Assembly (NCBI GenBank): GCA_051892935.1
Contig: JBJFGS010000013.1
Coordinates: forward strand, 1 to 20,231
From: Candidatus Coprovivens sp.
GTDB lineage: Bacteria > Bacillota_I > Bacilli_A > RF39 > UBA660
Reading direction: 5' to 3'
Length of the DNA stretch: 20,231 nucleotides
In this document: piece by piece, positions 2,998 through 20,231 of the stretch
Position numbering within the stretch: the first letter of the stretch is position 1
Layout: each line of letters opens with the position of its first letter
Translations under genes and position numbers: made by a program
Notes under the pieces: model-generated
Told to the model about the DNA's origin: nothing
What the model saw: only the letters and a program-made list of their open reading frames with translations
The model's database searches: none

Positions 2998-5900
2998 CTA
3001 AGAGACAAAAGCCTCAAAGTCCCCATATTGTTTTATAGTTTCTATAGCATTATCAACCATTGCTATATAATATGATTGGTCTATATCTTTAACTTTATCT
3101 AGAGTTTTTACCATTTCTGATTCAAGCCATCTATATCCTTTTGCTCCAGTGGCTGAAGAATATTTTAAGTTTCCTTCTTTATCTTTTCCTTCCCTAAGTA
3201 ACAATCCTCCTCCGAATCCGGGTTTTATAGGACAGAAACTTCCAACTTTACCTATAAAACGATAATTGTGTTCGTTTTCTGGTAAGTTTTCATTTAGGTC
3301 CAAATATAATGATGATGTTACTGATTTCGTTTCACACATATCTTCAAATAATATTTCTTCTTTACTAAATAGTTTCTTGAATACATATGGAATTTGGAAT
3401 TGAGTTCCAGTAGCAGTCCATTTCTCTGGTTTCTTTTCATTTTTTTCTGGAATATATCCATAAAGTTTTTCACAATATTCCTTTCCGGCATATTTTGCAA
3501 TATAAACGGCATCATTAACTAGACACATTCTATCGTAAGTAGCCTCATGTTCAAATGTGTATCCGTATTTTTTACCGAACTTCATAACAAAATCAATTAT
3601 CTCAGGTGTTGCATTTGGGATTTTTATAGAGTCTGTTTTAATATGTGCTACTGTAAATCCCCTTTTTTGAACTTCATGCTTTAAATCAATCATAAATAAA
3701 GCTCCACGTTTAGCAACTATATTATCTTTGTTACGATTATCTCTGAATGGATTTTCAAAACCAGCACTGGTTAAACCATATACTGAATTTATAGCTGTCT
3801 TTAAAGCATTAGCCAATTCTTTAGCCATACCTTCGTCATTTAAATATTTAGCTAACTTACCATCTAATATCTTCTTAGCTTTGTCGTATTCTTTATGCTT
3901 AATATAAATACGTGAATCTTTAATTTCTTTAAATCTAGAAGTAAATTTTGTACCGAATAGAACTTCATCAGTAACACTAGTTGGATGCATTGAAGCAACG
4001 TCCAATAAAGCTACATCACAATATATACCAGGTTCAGCATATACGTAGCCTCCTTCACCAACTTCTTCTCCTCTGTATGTTGATTTTCCAAATTCAAATT
4101 TATATCCTGGGAAATATGGTAATAGACTTCCAGCTTCTCCATGAGTTTGTGACATCATTTCGGGAGCAGCATCGTTTAAGAAATCGTATGTCTCCTCTGT
4201 TAAATTATAAACAGGTTCAGCTAAATTACGATAATTGAATTGATCTTGTGGCTTTCTATTCTTTCCGAATATAATTCTAGTTGTTAAAGAGTTTGTCGTA
4301 TCATTAACACTCATTCCTGCAACATCTGCTAGTATTTGTCTAGCTGTCCAGTCTGCTGATAAATGATTAAATACTGCTTCCGTAGCTATAACATCGTTAT
4401 CACAATATTCAGCAACCTTGGTCCAAAGCTCTTCTGGAACTGGTTCATCCCATGGAAGTCCTAATTCTTGGTGATGAATACCTAGTTCTATTTCAAATTT
4501 CTTTAAACTCTTTTTATTTCCAGCAGATGCAAAGTCATAAACGTCTGTATAAGATACGTTATATGCTTCTCCGAAGAATCCCCCTTCACCTTTGATAATC
4601 TTTTGTGATAATTTATAAAGTTGCTCATTTGTGTATCCCATCATCCTAGCGTATAGAATATGATTATCATATCTGCGACAGTTGAATCCAACTAATCTAA
4701 ATCTCATAATATCTTCTATTTCAGTTGGTGTTGGATTAATCATTCTAACTACTGGTTTTCCTTCACCCTCGAACTTCCAATTAACTAGAAATAAATTAGG
4801 AAACACTTCAACATCATAAAATACAAGTTTTTCATCATCATTATTTATAGCTATTGAATTATCTTCTGATTTAAATTGCATTTTATTTACAAGTTTGATA
4901 CAATAATCTGCTTGATTAGTACTACTTGCAGCAAATGCTAAAACTGCATTACGCATATCTGTAACATCATAATTCAAATCACTAGCATATGCGTCTTCTA
5001 ATATTTTATAAATAAAATCGACACTAGGCTTAGTAGCAGGATGTATTTCTTTGTTAAGGTTTCTTTTTATAATAGTTCTAAGCCCTTTTTCGCTTTTTAT
5101 AGCTTCAAAATTTACCATCTTTTTCTCTCCTTTCAGTGGTAATCCAGAACTAATATTAGCAATTGGAAGATTATTGCATTTAGATAATTTTCTTCTTAAT
5201 GAACTTTTACCAGTAAATACTTTAATTTCAATATGGTCGTCATAGATTCTACTAAGTTGATTTGGATCTCCTCCTGTGTAAATATAATGTAAATGTATCC
5301 CATTACCACTCTTACTCAATTCGGAATAAGTAGGAGGCCATTTACTAGCTTCTTTCAAATTCATCTCAAAGCATTTGTTGCCTTGTTCATCTGGAATATC
5401 AAAATCAATTACTATATGATTTTCTGGAACTTTGACATAATGAAGTTTAGAAGTGTCTAAGTCTGATAATCTAGTTTTAACATTATCCCATTTTTTAGAT
5501 GGCGTTTCTTTAGAACTAGCATATTGAGCTAGACAATTCGAACATTCTTTATCGAATATAGATTCATTATTATCAAATTGAATTAATTTTATATTATCTT
5601 CGTGCTCTTTTTTCTCATCATCAAAATCTTCGAATTTATCAGTACGAAAACCAGAATAATAACTTCTTACTCTAGTATCATCATCAAATTTGAAACGTTC
5701 TTTAAATTCCCAGAAATAGTTCTTAAGTTCTTCTTTAAAAGCTCTCTTAGGATATGGATATGCAACTTTAGATTCTTCACAATAAGTTTTATACATTTCC
5801 CATGCCGCCTTAAGAGTTACTCCATCTTCTTTTTTGAATACATAATAAGAATCGATAATAAAGTTATAGAAATCGTTAGATGCTCCCAACATCGCTACTG

Positions 5901-6927
5901 GAATATAATCATCATAAGCACCTGGATTGTCCAAATATATTTCTTGACAATAATAAGCTATATGTCCAAGTTCAAATTCTATTTGTTTCATAATTCGTTT
6001 GTATTCTTTAGGATTTAATTTGTTACCTGACGGAGATACATCAATTAATCTTCTTATAAGACCTGACTTACCATCAGTAATCTTTACCGGTTTATTAGTT
6101 CCCATAAATAAGAAAGCTTTGAATCTGTTAGAGTATGTTGTTTTAAACTTCTCATTAACAGTCATAAGTTCATGAGAAACCAAACTATTAAGTCTTGTGT
6201 TATCTTCAATTTTTGATAAATCTCCGTCATGTTGAATTGCAACTAGTGGGTTAGTTTTAAATGCTTCTAAAGCAAAAGAATTACTTGATGAGCCAAGAGC
6301 TTTAGCATCAAATACAGAATAATACCCTTCGAATAATTGTTGTATAATATTTAATATTGTAGATTTACCTGTCCCGGCAGCACCATATAATACCATGAAT
6401 TTTTGAATCTTTTTAGAATCACCAGAAACAATTGAACCTATAGCCCATTCTATTTTGTGTCTCTCTTCTTCTGTATATATTACAGACATTAATTCATCAT
6501 AAGCAGATATATCACCTTTTTCTAAAGGATATTTTAATCTTTTACTAGCATAGTCTTTTTTATTAGTTTTAGTATTAGAAAATATAAGATTTTCATCTAA
6601 CATATAGAATGAATCTCTCATCTGTTTCTGACAATATTTATGCCAACTATCTATCATTCCAGATTCAGCATCCCACATGTGTAAAACTTTAACGTTTGAA
6701 TCAAATCTCCCACAATTTTCTTTATAATAAATATCCAATTCTTTATCTATTAACTGTAAAGCATCTTGCTCATCTGTGGACCACAATCCACGCTCCTCAA
6801 TCCAAATGGCATAAAAGTCCCCACCTCTTATCATTAGGTCGGAACTTTTTTTAATTATAAATTTTGGATAGATTTCTATTGTTCCTTTATTACGAATACG
6901 TGTTGAAATCATTAGAAAATCAATCAT
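2998..6927 (-). CDS. Multidomain replicase: SF3 (D5-like) helicase + AEP primase-like domain + 3'-5' exonuclease + family B DNA polymerase
   Basis: Walker A YGAAGTGKS and SF3 motif C FMGTN; AEP-like VIDFD / SKSGNGIHLHY; Exo I FYDVE, Exo II GFNCRRYD, Exo III YCDND; PolB motifs LLDVASMHP, KTAINSVYG, HIKTDS. Confidence 0.85.
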   Translation of the reverse strand: MIDFLMISTRIRNKGTIEIYPKFIIKKSSDLMIRGGDFYAIWIEERGLWSTDEQDALQLIDKELDIYYKENCGRFDSNVKVLHMWDAESGMIDSWHKYCQKQMRDSFYMLDENLIFSNTKTNKKDYASKRLKYPLEKGDISAYDELMSVIYTEEERHKIEWAIGSIVSGDSKKIQKFMVLYGAAGTGKSTILNIIQQLFEGYYSVFDAKALGSSSNSFALEAFKTNPLVAIQHDGDLSKIEDNTRLNSLVSHELMTVNEKFKTTYSNRFKAFLFMGTNKPVKITDGKSGLIRRLIDVSPSGNKLNPKEYKRIMKQIEFELGHIAYYCQEIYLDNPGAYDDYIPVAMLGASNDFYNFIIDSYYVFKKEDGVTLKAAWEMYKTYCEESKVAYPYPKRAFKEELKNYFWEFKERFKFDDDTRVRSYYSGFRTDKFEDFDDEKKEHEDNIKLIQFDNNESIFDKECSNCLAQYASSKETPSKKWDNVKTRLSDLDTSKLHYVKVPENHIVIDFDIPDEQGNKCFEMNLKEASKWPPTYSELSKSGNGIHLHYIYTGGDPNQLSRIYDDHIEIKVFTGKSSLRRKLSKCNNLPIANISSGLPLKGEKKMVNFEAIKSEKGLRTIIKRNLNKEIHPATKPSVDFIYKILEDAYASDLNYDVTDMRNAVLAFAASSTNQADYCIKLVNKMQFKSEDNSIAINNDDEKLVFYDVEVFPNLFLVNWKFEGEGKPVVRMINPTPTEIEDIMRFRLVGFNCRRYDNHILYARMMGYTNEQLYKLSQKIIKGEGGFFGEAYNVSYTDVYDFASAGNKKSLKKFEIELGIHHQELGLPWDEPVPEELWTKVAEYCDNDVIATEAVFNHLSADWTARQILADVAGMSVNDTTNSLTTRIIFGKNRKPQDQFNYRNLAEPVYNLTEETYDFLNDAAPEMMSQTHGEAGSLLPYFPGYKFEFGKSTYRGEEVGEGGYVYAEPGIYCDVALLDVASMHPTSVTDEVLFGTKFTSRFKEIKDSRIYIKHKEYDKAKKILDGKLAKYLNDEGMAKELANALKTAINSVYGLTSAGFENPFRDNRNKDNIVAKRGALFMIDLKHEVQKRGFTVAHIKTDSIKIPNATPEIIDFVMKFGKKYGYTFEHEATYDRMCLVNDAVYIAKYAGKEYCEKLYGYIPEKNEKKPEKWTATGTQFQIPYVFKKLFSKEEILFEDMCETKSVTSSLYLDLNENLPENEHNYRFIGKVGSFCPIKPGFGGGLLLREGKDKEGNLKYSSATGAKGYRWLESEMVKTLDKVKDIDQSYYIAMVDNAIETIKQYGDFEAFVS

Positions 6928-12964: not shown

Positions 12965-13561
12965 TTAATTTAAAGGTATTGCTCTTGGTAATTTGATCAT
13001 ATATCCGTCTCTAACTCTTACAACTTGAGCACTCCTAATATCAGTCCAACCATATTTATTATCTGTATAATTTCCTGTAATACCCACCAAATCATATAAG
13101 TCAGCAACACTAACTATTCCATAAGTGTCTATTAATTCGTCCATTCTTGCCAATACATCTTCAGCTTCCCCTCTATTGTCAAGAATTATATCGTCATAAC
13201 TATATCCTCCTCTTATACTAGTAAGTCTCGAACTTCTTTCATCACGTCTATCATAATAGTTCGTATAAGATATTCTTGATGCTGATGATCTCTTTTTACT
13301 AACGCCAGTCTCACCATATAAAATCATATCAATACCGTTTGTAACAATATCAGAAAGAGCTTTTTTCATAGCTGGTATAAGAACTTCCATTACAATATAA
13401 TTCTTCACATTACTAGCATCTTCTGAAATAAAAACATCAGCAAATTTTGTAACTCCACTTTTCTTTTTAGCTTTTACTTTACCTTGAACAACTTTATCCA
13501 CCTTTTTCTTTTCCTCGTTCTCCTTAGATTTATGTGAATTTGATTTATATTCTTGACTCAT
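12965..13561 (-). CDS. Hypothetical phage protein; C-terminus resembles the DUF6353-like motif
   Basis: Start moved to MSQEY (RBS GAAAGGAGA); VSVADLYDLVG...KYGW resembles SLNEFYDLVG...LGW of the paralogs. Confidence 0.75.
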   Translation of the reverse strand: MSQEYKSNSHKSKENEEKKKVDKVVQGKVKAKKKSGVTKFADVFISEDASNVKNYIVMEVLIPAMKKALSDIVTNGIDMILYGETGVSKKRSSASRISYTNYYDRRDERSSRLTSIRGGYSYDDIILDNRGEAEDVLARMDELIDTYGIVSVADLYDLVGITGNYTDNKYGWTDIRSAQVVRVRDGYMIKLPRAIPLN

Positions 13562-13590
13562 TAAAATATCTCCTTTCATATTTTTAATAA

Positions 13591-13629
13591 AAGACAAAAG
13601 AGAAAGTACCTCGTTTGAAGTACTCTCTC
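13591..13629 (-). terminator. Intrinsic terminator
   Basis: Minus strand GAGAGAGTACTTC-AAAC-GAGGTACTTTCTC followed by TTTTGTCTT. Confidence 0.7.
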
Positions 13630-13634
13630 TTCTT

Positions 13635-13766
13635 TTAAACTTGTATAAATCTTATTGATTTAATATAATCTTTGTTCGTTGTTTTAAAATCATAATAATG
13701 TTTCCATTCTCTAAATCTTTCTGTTTTTGTAATTCCATCTTTATAAATAAATTCGACTATTATCAT
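13635..13766 (-). CDS. Small hypothetical protein (43 aa)
   Basis: Not in track. MIIVEFIYKDGITKTERFREWKHYYDFKTTNKDYIKSIRFIQV; RBS AAAAGGAGT. Confidence 0.6.
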   Translation of the reverse strand: MIIVEFIYKDGITKTERFREWKHYYDFKTTNKDYIKSIRFIQV

Positions 13767-13784
13767 AAATACACTCCTTTTTAA

Positions 13785-14018
13785 TTAACAGTCTTCTTCG
13801 TTTTCTTCAGTATTTTCTTCTTCGTTAACTTCTTCATTGTTTTTTGCTTTTAATCTTGGCTTAACAACTTTCTTATATAATAATGTTCCCAATAAAGCTG
13901 TTGCTCCAACAACTAATCCAGCAACCAAACCTTTGTTAAAGTTAGTGTTTGATTCTTCTACCTCTGTTAAAATTTCATCAGCCTCATCAACTAAATTTAA
14001 GTTTGTGTTTTCTTCCAT
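13785..14018 (-). CDS. Small acidic single-TM protein
   Basis: Start moved to MEENT (RBS GAAAGGGG); GLVAGLVVGATALLGTLLY helix; first gene after motif copy 3. Confidence 0.75.
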   Translation of the reverse strand: MEENTNLNLVDEADEILTEVEESNTNFNKGLVAGLVVGATALLGTLLYKKVVKPRLKAKNNEEVNEEENTEENEEDC

Positions 14019-14054
14019 TTTTAAATCCCCTTTCAAATATAAAAATTTTATTCT

Positions 14055-14082
14055 TTCATTAAAGGCCTTGTAAATTTCGCGT
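14055..14082 (-). promoter_or_regulatory. 28-bp promoter-like motif, copy 3
   Basis: Minus strand ACGCGAAATTTACAAGGCCTTTAATGAA. Confidence 0.75.
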
Positions 14083-14084
14083 AT

Positions 14085-14858
14085 TTATAATAAATGCTGA
14101 TAATTATATTTAGGTGATACTGAATAATCTACAACAATACATGGAGTATCATCTTCTGATAGTTGTGTGCTAAATTCTATTTCTACAAGGCTATCATTTA
14201 CATTCCAACCTAATTCAAATCCTAATTGGGTATAAGGTAAACCAACTAAATCATAGAATTCATTTAATGAACAGTACATATCATTCATTAATTTTTTATT
14301 TATAATGTTTTCTGCTTTACGGATTTTATCAATATCTGATTTAAAATATCTTCCAGATATAGCATCGTAGCATAAAGTATTACCTTTTTCGGTTATTATA
14401 ACTTCATTATTTTTGACTGGGTTCTTTTCTATTTTTTCTTTTGCTACTTTATCTCTAACTTCTTGTTCTTTTTTCTCACCAATAGTTTCAATAACTTTTT
14501 CTTTGTATTCGGTAAATGCATTTTCAGAAAGTTTATAAGCGGTTGCTAATACCGCATTTCTTTTAGAATTAACAGAAGTTGCACCTATCAAACATGCAAC
14601 AGATACACCAGTTGTTATAGCTGTTGGAATATAGCATCTCCAACAAGTTTTGATAACATCTTTAGTGGTTAATTCATCAACATTTTCTTCTTCCTTCTTA
14701 TCTTCAATTAATCTTAAAGCTTTAGGAGTTGCTTTTACAGCTAATACAGTGGCTGACAACATTCCTGTTATTCCTAATCCTGTTAATATTTCTGGACTGT
14801 GTTGAGATACACTTGTTTTAACATGATTGATAATTTTTGAAATTCCTTCTTTTTTCAT
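14085..14858 (-). CDS. DUF6353-like phage protein, paralog 2
   Basis: SPEILTGLGITGMLSATVLAVKATPKA; YIPTAI; SLNEFYDLVG...GFELGW. Confidence 0.75.
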   Translation of the reverse strand: MKKEGISKIINHVKTSVSQHSPEILTGLGITGMLSATVLAVKATPKALRLIEDKKEEENVDELTTKDVIKTCWRCYIPTAITTGVSVACLIGATSVNSKRNAVLATAYKLSENAFTEYKEKVIETIGEKKEQEVRDKVAKEKIEKNPVKNNEVIITEKGNTLCYDAISGRYFKSDIDKIRKAENIINKKLMNDMYCSLNEFYDLVGLPYTQLGFELGWNVNDSLVEIEFSTQLSEDDTPCIVVDYSVSPKYNYQHLL

Positions 14859-15916: not shown

Positions 15917-15947
15917 ATTATTACTCCTTTCAAATAAAAAATAAAAA

Positions 15948-16018
15948 GGAACGTGTCGGACTCGAACCAACGACACCCGCGTTTTAATGCAGTGCTCTAC
16001 CAACTGAGCTAACGTTCT
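15948..16018 (-). tRNA. tRNA-like RNA / pseudo-tRNA (Phe-like body, aberrant anticodon arm, no CCA)
   Basis: GAACGT-TA-GCTC AGTTGGTA GAGC-A-CTGC ATTAAAAC GCGG-GTGTC-GTTGG TTCGAGT CCGAC-ACGTTCC. D and T arms canonical; 6-bp acceptor; anticodon arm 16 nt instead of 17. Confidence 0.75.
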
Positions 16019-16019
16019 C

Positions 16020-18326: not shown

Positions 18327-19088
18327 TTAATTAAAATTTATGCCTTCTTGGATATAATTATTTATATTTAAAAAATTACTTTTATTAGATATTGTGTTGT
18401 TTTCATATTTTTCAATTTTGTAGTTTTCTACTCCTAATTTCCTACATAAATCTTTTATGTTGTTTTCTAGAGATGCCATAGCATTATCCATAATTTGTTG
18501 CTCTGTTTTTAAATAGTTCTCGGTTTCTTGTGTAGAAAAATTAGCCATAGCGTTTGTTTCATTAGAAGTAAAATTCTTAGCTAATAAACCGTTATTTTCG
18601 TCTACATACGCTGTTTTATAGTCAATACGAACATCTTCTATTGATAAATTTGTCTCATGTAGTTTTATCTTTAATGCATCATCTTCATACACAACATTGA
18701 TGTTTTTAAAATCGTAAGTAACATTGTAATAGTATTTAGCTGTAAATATGACATCTTTATAGGTTAGTCGGTTCCATATATTTTTGCATATATTTGTTAC
18801 ACTATCAGCCATAACTGCTTTACACTTATTACTAAATCTATAAGACGTTTCTATTGTTCCTCTAGCTACAATCATTTTGTTCATTGATTTAAATGTTTCA
18901 TTGAGTATATTTTTATCTGTGTACATTTCTTTTATCTGTTGTTCAGCATCTTTAATTTGTTTCTTATATTCTTCTATTAGCTCTTGTCTTCTCTGTTCTT
19001 CCTGACGCTTTTGTTGAACATAAGTTGTCGCACCGATTGAAGTAGCACTAGTAATAACCAATAAACCAGCTATAGTTTTTCCTTTCAT
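18327..19088 (-). CDS. Membrane-anchored coiled-coil protein, DUF4230-like
   Basis: N-terminal hydrophobic helix, Q/E coiled coil, then beta-rich domain (YNVTYDFKNINV...LKIKL) and helical end (IMDNA...NNIKDL..LG) resembling DUF4230. Confidence 0.6.
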   Translation of the reverse strand: MKGKTIAGLLVITSATSIGATTYVQQKRQEEQRRQELIEEYKKQIKDAEQQIKEMYTDKNILNETFKSMNKMIVARGTIETSYRFSNKCKAVMADSVTNICKNIWNRLTYKDVIFTAKYYYNVTYDFKNINVVYEDDALKIKLHETNLSIEDVRIDYKTAYVDENNGLLAKNFTSNETNAMANFSTQETENYLKTEQQIMDNAMASLENNIKDLCRKLGVENYKIEKYENNTISNKSNFLNINNYIQEGINFN

Positions 19089-19107
19089 ATTATAAAACTC
19101 CTTTCAA

Positions 19108-19300
19108 TAAAAAATAAAAGAAGAGAGCGTAACCTTCGCGAACCTTCGTCCCCACGCTACTAGTAAACTCCCTCTAGACGTAGCACCGAGTCATTTCTCG
19201 GCACGAATTTACACTTGCTTCGAACCTTCGTCCCTACACTACTAGTATACTGTTCCTAGATGTAGCACCAAGTCTTTTCCTGGCTAAGCTTAATTTTATC
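19108..19300 (-). ncRNA. Structured ncRNA A: two tandem 64-nt domains (19139-19202, 19221-19284)
   Basis: Own motif upstream and T-tract downstream; no ORF; copies 52/64 identical with pairing-preserving changes; GC-richer than surroundings. Confidence 0.7.
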
Positions 19301-19302
19301 TC

Positions 19303-19330
19303 TTCATAATAGGAGATGTAAAAAGTGCGT
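19303..19330 (-). promoter_or_regulatory. 28-bp promoter-like motif, copy 7 (divergent)
   Basis: Minus strand ACGCACTTTTTACATCTCCTATTATGAA. Confidence 0.65.
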
Positions 19331-19534
19331 AAGAAAAAGTAAAAGGGCTTGTATATCACGATAGCGAATCGCTCTCATCTTATCTCAAGGTCATTAACCT
19401 TCTCATAAGCCCCACGGTCAATTCCGCACAACTACCCATATACTCTAACATCGAATCGCTCTCATCTTATCTCAAGGTCATTAACCTTCTCATAAGCCCC
19501 ACGGTCAATTCCGCACAAATGTCAGTTTTTAATC
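19331..19534 (-). ncRNA. Structured ncRNA B: two identical 67-nt domains (19365-19431, 19452-19518)
   Basis: Perfect direct repeat with a 20-nt linker; two hairpins per copy; own motif upstream and TTTTACTTTTTCTT downstream. Confidence 0.7.
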
Positions 19535-19536
19535 TC

Positions 19537-19564
19537 TTCATAATAGGAGATGTTTTTTTCGCGA
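19537..19564 (-). promoter_or_regulatory. 28-bp promoter-like motif, copy 8
   Basis: Minus strand TCGCGAAAAAAACATCTCCTATTATGAA. Confidence 0.7.
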
Positions 19565-19677
19565 AAAAAAAGAAGATGTATGAATCACTGTCTCACTACC
19601 CTTACCTCAAGGTTTTTAACCTTCTCGTAAGTACTATGTCAATTCATAGCCGTTTATCATACTTAATTAATCTTCTT
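19565..19677 (-). ncRNA. Structured ncRNA C: single domain homologous to B
   Basis: CUAUG-AAUUGA-CAUAG and CUUAC-GAG-AAGGU-UAAAA-ACCUU-GAG-GUAAG; closed by GUAUGA/UCAUAC and AAGAAGAU/AUCUUCUU; ends in a T-tract. Confidence 0.65.
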
Positions 19678-19705
19678 TTCATAATAGTAGTTGTATTTTT
19701 CGCGT
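19678..19705 (-). promoter_or_regulatory. 28-bp promoter-like motif, copy 9
   Basis: Minus strand ACGCGAAAAATACAACTACTATTATGAA. Confidence 0.75.
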
Positions 19706-19733
19706 AAAAAGAAAAAGGAGCGGTAAAGCTCCC
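19706..19733 (-). terminator. Intrinsic terminator abutting motif copy 9
   Basis: Minus strand GGAGC-TTTACC-GCTCC followed by TTTTTCTTTTT. Confidence 0.75.
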
Positions 19734-19742
19734 ATTATAGAA

Positions 19743-20168
19743 TTATCTTAATGCTTCTTTAACATTTATAAAATCTGCTATTGTTTCTATGATTGCTTGT
19801 CTATCTGCTTCTTTTTCTTTTAATACTATTTTTGTTGCTTCATCCATACCTTTATTCATAAGGTTAGTGATTTTATTCTCAACTCTACTACGTTTTAGTT
19901 CTTCATTTTTGATAAGCCTATCGATTAATGGACCACCAACTACTCTTTTAACTAATTCTGCAGTTTCACCTTGTTGTATTAATTTCTCTGCCACTCCTTC
20001 GTAAGCTTCTTTGTATAGTTCTTTATCCATCTTAAGAGCTTTGACTTCTTTGGTTTGTAAATAATACAATACACCTAATCCTGTAGAACAAACTATTCCA
20101 GCTGTTGATAGTATTGTTAATCCAACCTTCTTATCTTTCTTTTCTTTTCCGTTAGTTTCATTTTTCAT
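19743..20168 (-). CDS. Membrane-anchored coiled-coil hypothetical protein
   Basis: Start moved to MKNET (RBS AAAGGAGAG); VGLTILSTAGIVCSTGLGVLYYL helix. Confidence 0.75.
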   Translation of the reverse strand: MKNETNGKEKKDKKVGLTILSTAGIVCSTGLGVLYYLQTKEVKALKMDKELYKEAYEGVAEKLIQQGETAELVKRVVGGPLIDRLIKNEELKRSRVENKITNLMNKGMDEATKIVLKEKEADRQAIIETIADFINVKEALR

Positions 20169-20199
20169 AAAAATCTCTCCTTTAATAAAAATAATATCT

Positions 20200-20227
20200 T
20201 TCATTAAAATCAATGTAATTTTCGCGT
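20200..20227 (-). promoter_or_regulatory. 28-bp promoter-like motif, copy 10
   Basis: Minus strand ACGCGAAAATTACATTGATTTTAATGAA. Confidence 0.75.
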
Positions 20228-20231
20228 ATTT

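What the first reader, a model, noticed from the sequence alone, without database searches (positions are those of the whole stretch)
19108..19705. Cluster of three separately promoted phage ncRNAs carrying five copies of an unassigned three-way-junction fold
Seen: about 600 bp with no credible ORF is divided into three units, each with its own 28-bp motif and 3' T-tract. On the minus strand every domain has the same layout: closing stem P1; hairpin P2 with a G-AAWWGA-C loop (CCGAG AAAUGA CUCGG; CCAGG AAAAGA CUUGG; GCGG AAUUGA CCGU twice; CUAUG AAUUGA CAUAG); a bulged hairpin P3; and a purine-rich strand ending GGUUCG, GAUUCG or GAUUCA. Stem sequences differ while pairing and loop are kept, which indicates selection on RNA structure. 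I do not recognise the family. Inference: a multiplied and diversified early phage RNA could be (a) a decoy or antitoxin mimic against RNA-controlled host defence, as with pseudo-ToxI repeats against type III ToxIN; (b) a riboswitch-like ligand or protein sponge; or (c) a cis-acting antiterminator like HK022 put RNA, which has two hairpins separated by one nucleotide, as unit A does.
Basis: partly seen in the sequence, partly recalled or inferred. Interest (0 to 1): 0.88.

Follow-up and report, generated by a model that had tools for sequence, protein, structure and literature searches.

The report
New small-RNA family in gut phages
Three back-to-back mini-genes in a gut phage's early region make small folded RNAs that belong to an uncatalogued, widely copied RNA family whose job is still unknown.

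Summary
On the minus strand, 19106-19706 carries three units. Each has a phage early promoter motif, one or two folded RNA domains, a closing helix with the transcript's own 5' end, and a U-tract.

A, B1 and B2 are clear homologs. C1 and C2 are a second subtype, linked to them only through intermediates. No Rfam family matches.

Homologs occur on 10 other uncultivated phage contigs that share the promoter, usually as two tandem domains per unit. Across 17 copies, 96.4% of cells pair and 17 of 22 pairs change on both sides. No shuffle of 500 matches this.

The constant parts are a 5-bp hairpin with loop G-AANNGA-C and a purine-rich 3' strand. The third hairpin is optional.

Function is not shown. 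I favour stable, trans-acting early RNAs that bind a partner (about 0.4), over cis antitermination or leader roles (about 0.25).

No expression data could be obtained. The family is real and new to the catalogues searched, but mechanistically open.

The parts
19743..20168 (-). Upstream gene (141 aa, N-terminal hydrophobic segment, no Pfam or PHROG family). Its homologs sit next to the A-type RNA in the three closest relatives.
   Evidence: ORF list. No family found. Homologs in L155, L156 and L158 adjoin the RNA.
19716..19733 (-). Intrinsic terminator hairpin of the upstream gene.
   Evidence: Terminator scan.
19677..19706 (-). Promoter motif of unit A (-35 TTTACG, -10 TATTAT).
   Evidence: The same motif occurs in 327 distinct instances in 124 loci.
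19565..19676 (-). Unit A RNA (ends inferred). It has closing helix P0, one three-way-junction domain A (19578-19662) and a U8 tract.
   Evidence: Folds. Models R1 and R2 score 118.9 and 104.4 bits.
19536..19565 (-). Promoter motif of unit B.
19330..19535 (-). Unit B RNA (ends inferred), holding two tandem domains. B1 is 19445-19525. B2 is 19360-19436, with an outer helix pairing 19438-19443 with 19351-19356. A U-rich tract follows.
   Evidence: Identical 67-nt cores. R1 E about 1e-8, R2 74 bits. Layout matches dimers in L217, L230, L258 and L296.
19302..19331 (-). Promoter motif of unit C.
19106..19301 (-). Unit C RNA (ends inferred), holding two tandem second-subtype domains: C1 (19217-19289) and C2 (19135-19207). 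The U-tract is 19106-19121.
   Evidence: Fold. Alignment A6. Model R3 scores 98-100 bits on both.
18327..19088 (-). Downstream gene (253 aa, DUF4230). Its GGAG ribosome-binding site (19098-19101) starts 5 nt after the unit C U-tract ends, so the gene has no promoter of its own.

Best explanation
SHOWN. The stretch holds three tandem RNA genes of an uncatalogued family of small structured RNAs. The family occurs in gut phages that share one early promoter class. Each domain has:
- a closing stem P1;
- a 5-bp hairpin P2 whose loop AANNGA is closed by G-C;
- an optional and variable hairpin P3;
- a purine-rich, Shine-Dalgarno-like 3' strand ending GAUUCG, GGUUCG, GUUCAG or GUGUAG.
Units hold one or two domains. 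The purine-rich start of the transcript can pair with a pyrimidine run just before a U-tract.

INFERRED. Host RNA polymerase transcribes the units at once on infection. The closing helix plus U-tract ends most transcripts and leaves no free 5' end, so the RNAs accumulate. They then act in trans by presenting the invariant P2 loop and the purine strand to a partner. That partner could be a protein, another RNA or a small ligand. The effect would be sequestration or decoying as part of host takeover or counter-defence.

Leaky termination also lets some units serve as 5' leaders of the next gene.

I am about 0.85 confident in the identity as a real RNA family. I am about 0.4 confident in the trans-acting binding mechanism.
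For: STRUCTURE UNDER SELECTION.
- 6 close copies: 96.9% of cells pair, 10 of 22 pairs change on both sides, 0 of 500 shuffles reach this.
- 17 copies from 9 loci: 96.4% pair, 17 of 22 pairs change on both sides, 0 of 500 shuffles reach this. The covariation score is 0.534, against at most 0.096 for slid controls.
- Strand: 27 of 278 cells are G-U.

HAIRPIN ENRICHMENT NOT CONDITIONED ON PAIRING. 23 of 39 GAANNGAC words within 230 nt downstream of a promoter motif have 4 of 4 flanking pairs. Elsewhere it is 16 of 431.

STAND-ALONE GENES. By my reading of the printed sequences, 11 of 16 family units are followed by another promoter motif rather than a gene. 14 of 16 end in a U-tract.

CLOSING HELIX. 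It is recovered by MFE folds in 13 of the 15 unit folds. The two misses are window unit B and L156 unit B.

DOSAGE AND DIVERSIFICATION. There are five domains in the window. One is an exact 67-nt tandem duplicate. Other phages carry 2-6 copies.

NOT CODING. The antisense frame is broken in L156 and L155.

NOT A KNOWN FAMILY. No Rfam hit at any locus.
Against: - No transcript data of any kind were obtained, so promoters, ends and stability are all inferred.
- No partner was identified.
- 5 of 16 units lie directly before a ribosome-binding site, 2 of them without a U-tract (L155 and the second L258 unit). This fits a leader role.
- The units' terminators are not canonical and were missed by the scan.
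- CsrA, the obvious protein that binds GGA motifs, was not found in the 92%-complete MAG, while the control genomes rang.
- No complement of the P2 loop (7-mer) or of the GAUUCG tail exists on the sense strand of the window.
- Both covariation alignments were fitted to the model, and many rows are paralogs, so the shuffle controls overstate significance.
Confidence: 0.4

Rival explanations
1. Cis-acting RNA. The nascent domains act on the transcribing polymerase (processive antitermination, as I recall for HK022 put or Bacillus EAR). Alternatively they form a conditional terminator, setting how much transcription passes the unit's own U-tract and later terminators into downstream early and replication genes.
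For: - The units sit immediately after promoters and immediately before U-tracts.
- The DUF4230 gene has no promoter of its own and must be read through unit C.
- In L155 and the second L258 unit the RNA is a 5' leader without a U-tract.
- The early region is a chain of promoter-gene-terminator cassettes that something must read through.
- The two-domain layout resembles put's two hairpins (recalled).
Against: - 11 of 16 units are followed by a fresh promoter, so the next gene does not depend on read-through.
- I saw no alternative antiterminator pairing that is conserved.
- The genes downstream differ from phage to phage.
- No put or EAR model matched, although I cannot say that such models are in the library.
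Confidence: 0.25
2. Degenerate tRNA-derived elements. They would serve as RNase P/Z processing signals or as decoys for tRNA-targeting host nucleases, alongside the tRNA-like genes in the same cassettes.
For: - tRNA-like genes with 6-nt anticodon loops occupy identical promoter / RNA / U-tract / RBS cassettes in the window (15946-16019) and in relatives.
- The domain order (stem, hairpin, optional hairpin, strand containing GGUUCG or GAUUCG, stem) parallels acceptor, D arm, anticodon arm and T region. This parallel is my own reading.
Against: - The tRNA covariance model and ARAGORN find nothing in 19050-19800, even at E up to 10.
- There is no T stem.
- The P2 loop is not D-loop-like in length.
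Confidence: 0.1
3. Small-molecule aptamers (riboswitch-like). Tandem domains would bind a metabolite or nucleotide signal, either to regulate termination or to soak up the ligand.
For: - Compact junction fold with conserved unpaired purines.
- Tandem arrangement, with P1 continuous with the terminator stem.
- The P2 loop and 3' strand are partly complementary (GAAU with AUUC, GAAC with GUUC). This suggests a pseudoknot or a switch.
Against: - There is no fixed downstream gene class.
- 11 of 16 units precede a promoter.
- P3 is dispensable and the 3' strand varies considerably.
- The loop-tail complementarity is absent in the GUGUAG and GAGACAUAC subtypes.
Confidence: 0.08
4. Mimic of a type III antitoxin (pseudo-ToxI-like), neutralising an RNA-controlled abortive-infection toxin.
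For: - Tandem direct repeats sit behind a promoter and before a terminator.
- One exact duplication exists. As I recall, phage escape from ToxIN went by repeat expansion.
Against: - The repeat period is 82-87 nt, against the 34-45 nt that I recall for known families.
- No similar RNA was found in the MAG or in 150 relatives.
- No ToxN-family match was found in the MAG. The control genomes were silent too, so this point is uninformative.
- The neighbouring genes are DUF4230 or have no family.
Confidence: 0.04
5. A DNA-level element: replication origin, iterons or a packaging site.
For: Direct and inverted repeats lie in a 600-bp noncoding stretch of a replication-proximal region.
Against: - Pairing is strand-specific, with 27 G-U cells.
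- Compensatory changes preserve RNA helices.
- Promoter and U-tract bracket every unit.
- The stretch lies 12 kb from the polymerase gene.
Confidence: 0.03

Closest known systems
HK022 put RNAs and the Bacillus EAR element (RNA-mediated processive antitermination; recalled, not tested here)
   Same: Phage or operon RNA placed just after a promoter. It is built of two hairpin domains and is followed by terminators that downstream genes must pass.
   Different: Here the domain's own closing stem is the terminator stem. Most units are followed by a new promoter. No sequence or model comparison was possible.
ToxI and other type III antitoxin repeats, and phage pseudo-ToxI (recalled)
   Same: Promoter, then tandem RNA repeats, then a terminator. 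Copy number changes by exact duplication.
   Different: The period is 82-87 nt rather than about 36-45 nt. The fold is a junction rather than a short pseudoknot. No ToxN-like partner gene was found.
Rfam RAGATH-22 (RF03098)
   Same: The best Rfam alignment shares a hairpin with a GAAUUxAC loop and a ...GUGAU... tail.
   Different: It scores 17.8 bits against a gathering score of 120.3, with E 0.8. Hits of equal weakness occur in 17 of 151 related genomes, none over the cut-off. I treat this as chance.
Stable phage RNAs of unknown role beside tRNA genes (T4 species 1 and 2 RNAs; recalled)
   Same: Small, structured, abundant phage RNAs encoded near tRNA or tRNA-like genes, with no assigned function.
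   Different: No sequence relation was tested. Here each RNA has its own promoter and terminator and a repeated modular domain.
Candidate structured RNAs catalogued in phages (PMC10690425: abstract, section 2.2 and passages read)
   Same: That survey lists 10,006 candidates from viral contigs. Some are highly expressed gut-phage RNAs 64-86 nt long.
   Different: Its sequences are in supplements that I could not see. I therefore cannot say whether this family is among them. None of the text I read describes this architecture.

Membership tests
Any Rfam 15 family | Match at or above the family's gathering score. | tested here: not met
   The window's only gathering-level hit is a tRNA at 15947-16018. 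In 19050-19800 the best hit has E 0.8. Loci with homologs give only tRNA hits and weak chance hits.
RAGATH-22 (RF03098) | Score of at least 120.3 bits over the 166-position model. | tested here: not met
   17.8 bits. 0 of 151 related genomes are over the cut-off, while 17 of 151 give similar weak hits.
tRNA / tRNA-like | Cloverleaf recognised by the tRNA covariance model or by ARAGORN. | tested here: not met
   No tRNA hit in 19050-19800 at E up to 10. ARAGORN finds only 15946-16019.
Type III antitoxin (ToxI-like) | Tandem direct repeats of about 34-45 nt (recalled). | tested here: not met
   Start-to-start spacing is 87 nt (B1/B2) and 82 nt (C1/C2).
Type III antitoxin (ToxI-like) | An adjacent ToxN/AbiQ-type endoribonuclease gene. 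| tested here: not met
   The flanking genes are DUF4230 or have no family. PF13958 was not found in the MAG, but the control genomes were also silent.
HK022 put-type antiterminator RNA | Acts in cis on RNA polymerase to suppress downstream terminators. | not testable with these tools
   Only position can be read: promoter-proximal and before U-tracts.
Riboswitch | An aptamer coupled to an expression platform and consistently associated with one class of downstream genes. | tested here: not met
   11 of 16 units are followed by another promoter. The genes after the other 5 differ.
CsrB/RsmZ-type CsrA sponge | Repeated GGA motifs in loops, and a CsrA protein in the host. | tested here: not met
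   The P2 top lacks GGA in window domains A and C2, L155, L156 unit A, L158 and both domains of the first L230 unit. PF02599 was not found in the 92%-complete MAG, while 3 of 14 control genomes rang.
phi29 pRNA | Packaging RNA of protein-primed phi29-like phages; Rfam model (accession recalled). | tested here: not met
   No Rfam hit. The phage has a 1309-aa primase-polymerase 63% identical to that of Faecalibacterium phage FP_oengus.

The most novel reading that the evidence does not exclude
These tandem domains are RNA sponges. They would be made in bulk in the first minutes of infection from a dedicated promoter class, alongside tRNA-like RNAs with crippled anticodon loops. They would soak up a host immune component, either an RNA-binding or RNA-cutting effector or its nucleotide signal. 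Duplication and diversification of the domains would then record an arms race. That would be an RNA-only counter-defence arsenal.
Probability: 0.15. Interest if true: 0.9.

Novelty: new variant of a known kind. Interest (0 to 1): 0.6.

Why it matters
Phage-encoded small RNAs with known roles are few, and most catalogued phage RNA motifs are single hairpins or leaders. This one is a modular domain with strong covariation. It is multiplied within and between gut phages. It is expressed from its own promoters in the region that phages use to take over the host, next to unusual tRNA-like genes.

If these RNAs bind a host factor, they would be a new handle on host takeover or counter-defence in uncultivated gut phages. 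If they act in cis, they would add a new RNA class to processive antitermination.

Either way the family gives a defined, testable target: one invariant loop and one purine strand.

Tried and rejected
SCANS THAT GAVE ONLY CHANCE HITS.
- An exact P3 motif scan of IMG/VR gave 4 coding-sequence hits, read.
- The 14-mer GGGACGAAGGTTCG gave 118 unspecific stretches that I did not follow up.
- A first gapped pattern gave 9 stretches with no model hit.
- The genome contigs pattern gave 41 stretches. Only a weak Xenorhabdus hit came out, which I judge to be chance.

PROTEIN-BASED SEARCHES.
- The two flanking proteins found no relatives in IMG/VR when used singly.
- The two-protein alignment found one relative in IMG/VR and none in genome contigs.

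LEADS DROPPED.
- RAGATH-22 was followed and dropped.
- Weak R2 hits in four related genomes lacked the P2 loop.
- GenBank phage records gave no match for four queries.
- The FP_oengus and MT835485 records have no model hit. L155's record could not be searched whole.
- The 20 loci L310-L329 were screened only with my hairpin descriptor, not with the models.

EXPRESSION. The look-up of sequencing runs listed one DNA(?) virome run with a small share of words and no RNA holder. The contigs laid on the stretch are DNA only and leave 19160-19483 without cover.

OTHER CHECKS.
- The antisense ORF was rejected.
- CsrA sponge idea: CsrA was not found.
- ToxN search: uninformative.
- Base-pairing targets of the loop or tail in the window: none.
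- Loop-tail pseudoknot: complementary in the GAUUCG and GUUCAG subtypes but not in the others, so it is left open.
- My automatic P1 finder mis-assigned several domains, including C1, C2, L156 unit B and L158. I used hand readings for those.

TOOLS AND PAPERS.
- A search for 'RAGATH-22' found 0 papers. A six-term search for phage structured RNAs listed 25 of 38 papers. Of PMC10690425 I read the abstract, passages and section 2.2. Its supplements, which hold the sequences, were not available to me.

Full report
WHAT IS THERE

The window is contig C13 (1-20231) of a 1.8-Mb, 26% G+C metagenome-assembled genome. All sizeable ORFs lie on the minus strand. They encode a phage early and replication module:
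- a 1309-aa primase-polymerase, 63% identical to that of Faecalibacterium phage FP_oengus;
- a helicase, an HNH endonuclease and a thymidylate synthase;
- three DUF6353 paralogs.

Between a 141-aa gene (19743-20168) and a DUF4230 gene (18327-19088) lie about 600 nt without a credible ORF.

A 30-nt motif recurs on the minus strand at 19677-19706, 19536-19565 and 19302-19331. It also occurs at 20199-20228 before the 141-aa gene. It reads as a sigma-70-type promoter.

My expression found the motif, or near variants, at eight places on C13 and before no convincing site elsewhere in the genome. One of the eight is the duplicate across the N gap. The expression missed the unit B copy. One copy drives a tRNA-like gene, and others drive small protein genes.

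Each of the three units ends in a U-rich run.

THE FOLD

MFE folds give a closing stem, the G-AAWWGA-C hairpin and a second hairpin for A and C2. Fold z-scores are modest, at -1.8 to -2.2.

If transcription starts a few bases after the -10 element (inferred), the purine-rich start (AGAAGAU, GAAGAGA) pairs with the pyrimidine run just before the U-tract. The whole RNA is then closed by its own ends. I call this closing helix P0.

HOMOLOGY WITHIN THE WINDOW

- A model built from domain A alone finds B2 and B1 at E 1.2e-8 and 3.3e-8. It finds C2 and C1 only at E 1.7 and 4, ranking 10th and 15th of 30.
- B1 and B2 share an identical 67-nt core but have different closing stems. C1 and C2 are 81% identical over 64 nt.
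- C1 and C2 differ by compensated pairs in P2 (A-U to G-C) and P3 (A-U to G-C), as read.

KNOWN FAMILIES

- Rfam 15 gives nothing at gathering level except a tRNA at 15947-16018.
- At E up to 10, the best hit in the region is RAGATH-22, with 17.8 bits against a gathering score of 120.3.
- Hits of equal weakness turn up in 17 of 151 related genomes, and none is over the cut-off.
- ARAGORN finds no tRNA in the region.

RELATIVES

No copy exists elsewhere in the MAG or in 150 related genomes. This holds for R1 (1 of 151, the window's own genome) and for R3 (1 of 151). R2 gave four further weak hits, which lacked the hairpin on inspection.

Pattern scans then found true homologs of the A type:
- L155, a metagenome contig: 56.2 bits.
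- L156 and L159, one 55-kb IMG/VR contig: 79.5 bits.
- L158, a 46-kb IMG/VR contig: 85.8 bits.

In all three, the RNA adjoins a homolog of the 141-aa gene. An extra conserved hairpin, which I call domain X, precedes it.

L156 is syntenic with the window. Three promoter units follow that gene there too.

The six close copies give 96.9% paired cells. 10 of 22 pairs change on both sides, and 0 of 500 shuffles reach this.

THE WIDER FAMILY

A descriptor for the hairpin (four pairs, then G-AANNGA-C) found it in L213, L217, L262, L304, L230, L258 and L296. It occurs mostly as tandem pairs 61-91 nt apart, downstream of the promoter. L217, L262 and L304 carry the same unit on three contigs.

Counting all GAANNGAC words regardless of pairing:
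- Within 230 nt after a promoter motif, 23 of 39 have four of four flanking pairs.
- Elsewhere, 16 of 431 do.

The A-type model R2 detects these variants in 0.86 Mb at E from 1e-6 to 0.3. There are 16 hits at E up to 1, and I doubt two of them (L219 and L268).

The C-type model R3 has a single hit in the same 0.86 Mb, at E 0.44. It falls on a domain of L258 that R2 also hits at E 9e-5. That is the only link between C1/C2 and the rest, and it is weak.

Seventeen copies from nine loci give 96.4% paired cells. 17 of 22 pairs change on both sides. 0 of 500 shuffles reach this. The covariation score is 0.534, against at most 0.096 when partners are slid.

Three cautions apply:
- The alignment was fitted to the model.
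- Many rows are paralogs.
- The rows were chosen by that same model.

Including the window, the family is on 11 contigs. None of these loci gives an Rfam hit other than tRNA. Four queries found nothing in GenBank phage records.

ANATOMY LEARNED FROM THE FAMILY

- The usual unit is P0 enclosing two tandem domains. Window units B and C have this layout. Unit A has one domain, and in L155, L156 and L158 domain X takes the first place.
- P3 is optional. It is absent in L213 and in most L230 copies, short in L217, and long in the window.
- The constant parts are the P2 hairpin and a purine-rich strand that often contains GGAG, GAGG or GGGA. The strand ends in GAUUCG, GGUUCG, GUUCAG or GUGUAG.
- In the GAUUCG and GUUCAG subtypes, the loop start is complementary to the tail (GAAU with AUUC, GAAC with GUUC). 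RNAfold even prefers that pairing in B1 and L213. It fails in the GUGUAG and GAGACAUAC subtypes, so I leave a pseudoknot or a switch as a suggestion only.

CIS OR TRANS

By my reading of the printed sequences:
- 11 of 16 units are followed by another promoter motif.
- 5 of 16 are followed directly by a ribosome-binding site and a gene.
- 14 of 16 end in a U-tract.

The majority therefore look like stand-alone RNA genes. However, unit C must be read through for the DUF4230 gene to be expressed.

PARTNER

No partner is evident:
- CsrA was not found in the MAG.
- The ToxN search was uninformative.
- No sense-strand complement of the loop or tail exists in the window.

DNA contigs of one virome run show fragments of a near-identical phage. 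They also show a relative whose A-like piece lies on the other side of the 141-aa gene homolog, as in L155 and L158.

VERDICT

What it does is not shown.

I put about 0.4 on stable trans-acting binding RNAs and about 0.25 on cis antitermination or leader function. The rest is spread over tRNA-derived elements, ligand aptamers, antitoxin mimicry and DNA-level roles.

Comparisons with put, EAR, ToxI, pRNA and the T4 stable RNAs rest on recall, not on tests made here.

Noticed in passing
window 15946-16019 (-); L124 2935-3006; L158 14334-14405; L125 10933-11000; L155 2501-2568; L296 9398-9468; L213 3790-3858: tRNA-like genes sit in the same promoter / RNA / U-tract / RBS cassettes. ARAGORN calls the three it finds 'tRNA-???' with a two-base anticodon (6-nt loop). 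In the window, the acceptor stem runs straight into the U-tract with no CCA, 11 nt before the RBS of a DUF6353 gene.
   Followed up: partly
124 loci (window, L155, L156, L158, L210-L329): Of 327 distinct promoter-motif instances, 96 had no ORF start within 110 nt by my crude test. Besides this family and the tRNA-likes, they drive several other recurring structured RNAs, for example L214 4566 with L298 8304, L273 2263 with L310 4386, and L211 6140 with L275 6514 and L283 3733. All are closed by a purine start pairing with a pyrimidine run before the U-tract.
   Followed up: no
L155 about 6600-6645 (-); L156 about 3500-3545 (+); L158 about 13462-13505 (+): 'Domain X' is a hairpin with a conserved 17-nt loop (..CUGGAY.GGUGA..) and compensated stems. 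It precedes the A-type domain in three relatives but is missing from the window.
   Followed up: no
L158 about 13340-14830: The polymerase reading frame seems to stop and then resume after a block of cassettes: RNA unit, homolog of the 141-aa gene, a small gene, a tRNA-like gene and one more gene. This suggests a split polymerase gene or a mobile insertion.
   Followed up: no
contig C13 20232-20390 (beyond the window): The 100-N scaffold gap is flanked on both sides by the same run of about 60 nt (promoter and 5' end of the 141-aa gene). The gap is probably an assembly overlap.
   Followed up: no
L156 3811-3940 and L230 about 4926-5060: A nearly identical structured leader of about 130 nt, unrelated to this family, precedes a gene in both phages.
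   Followed up: no
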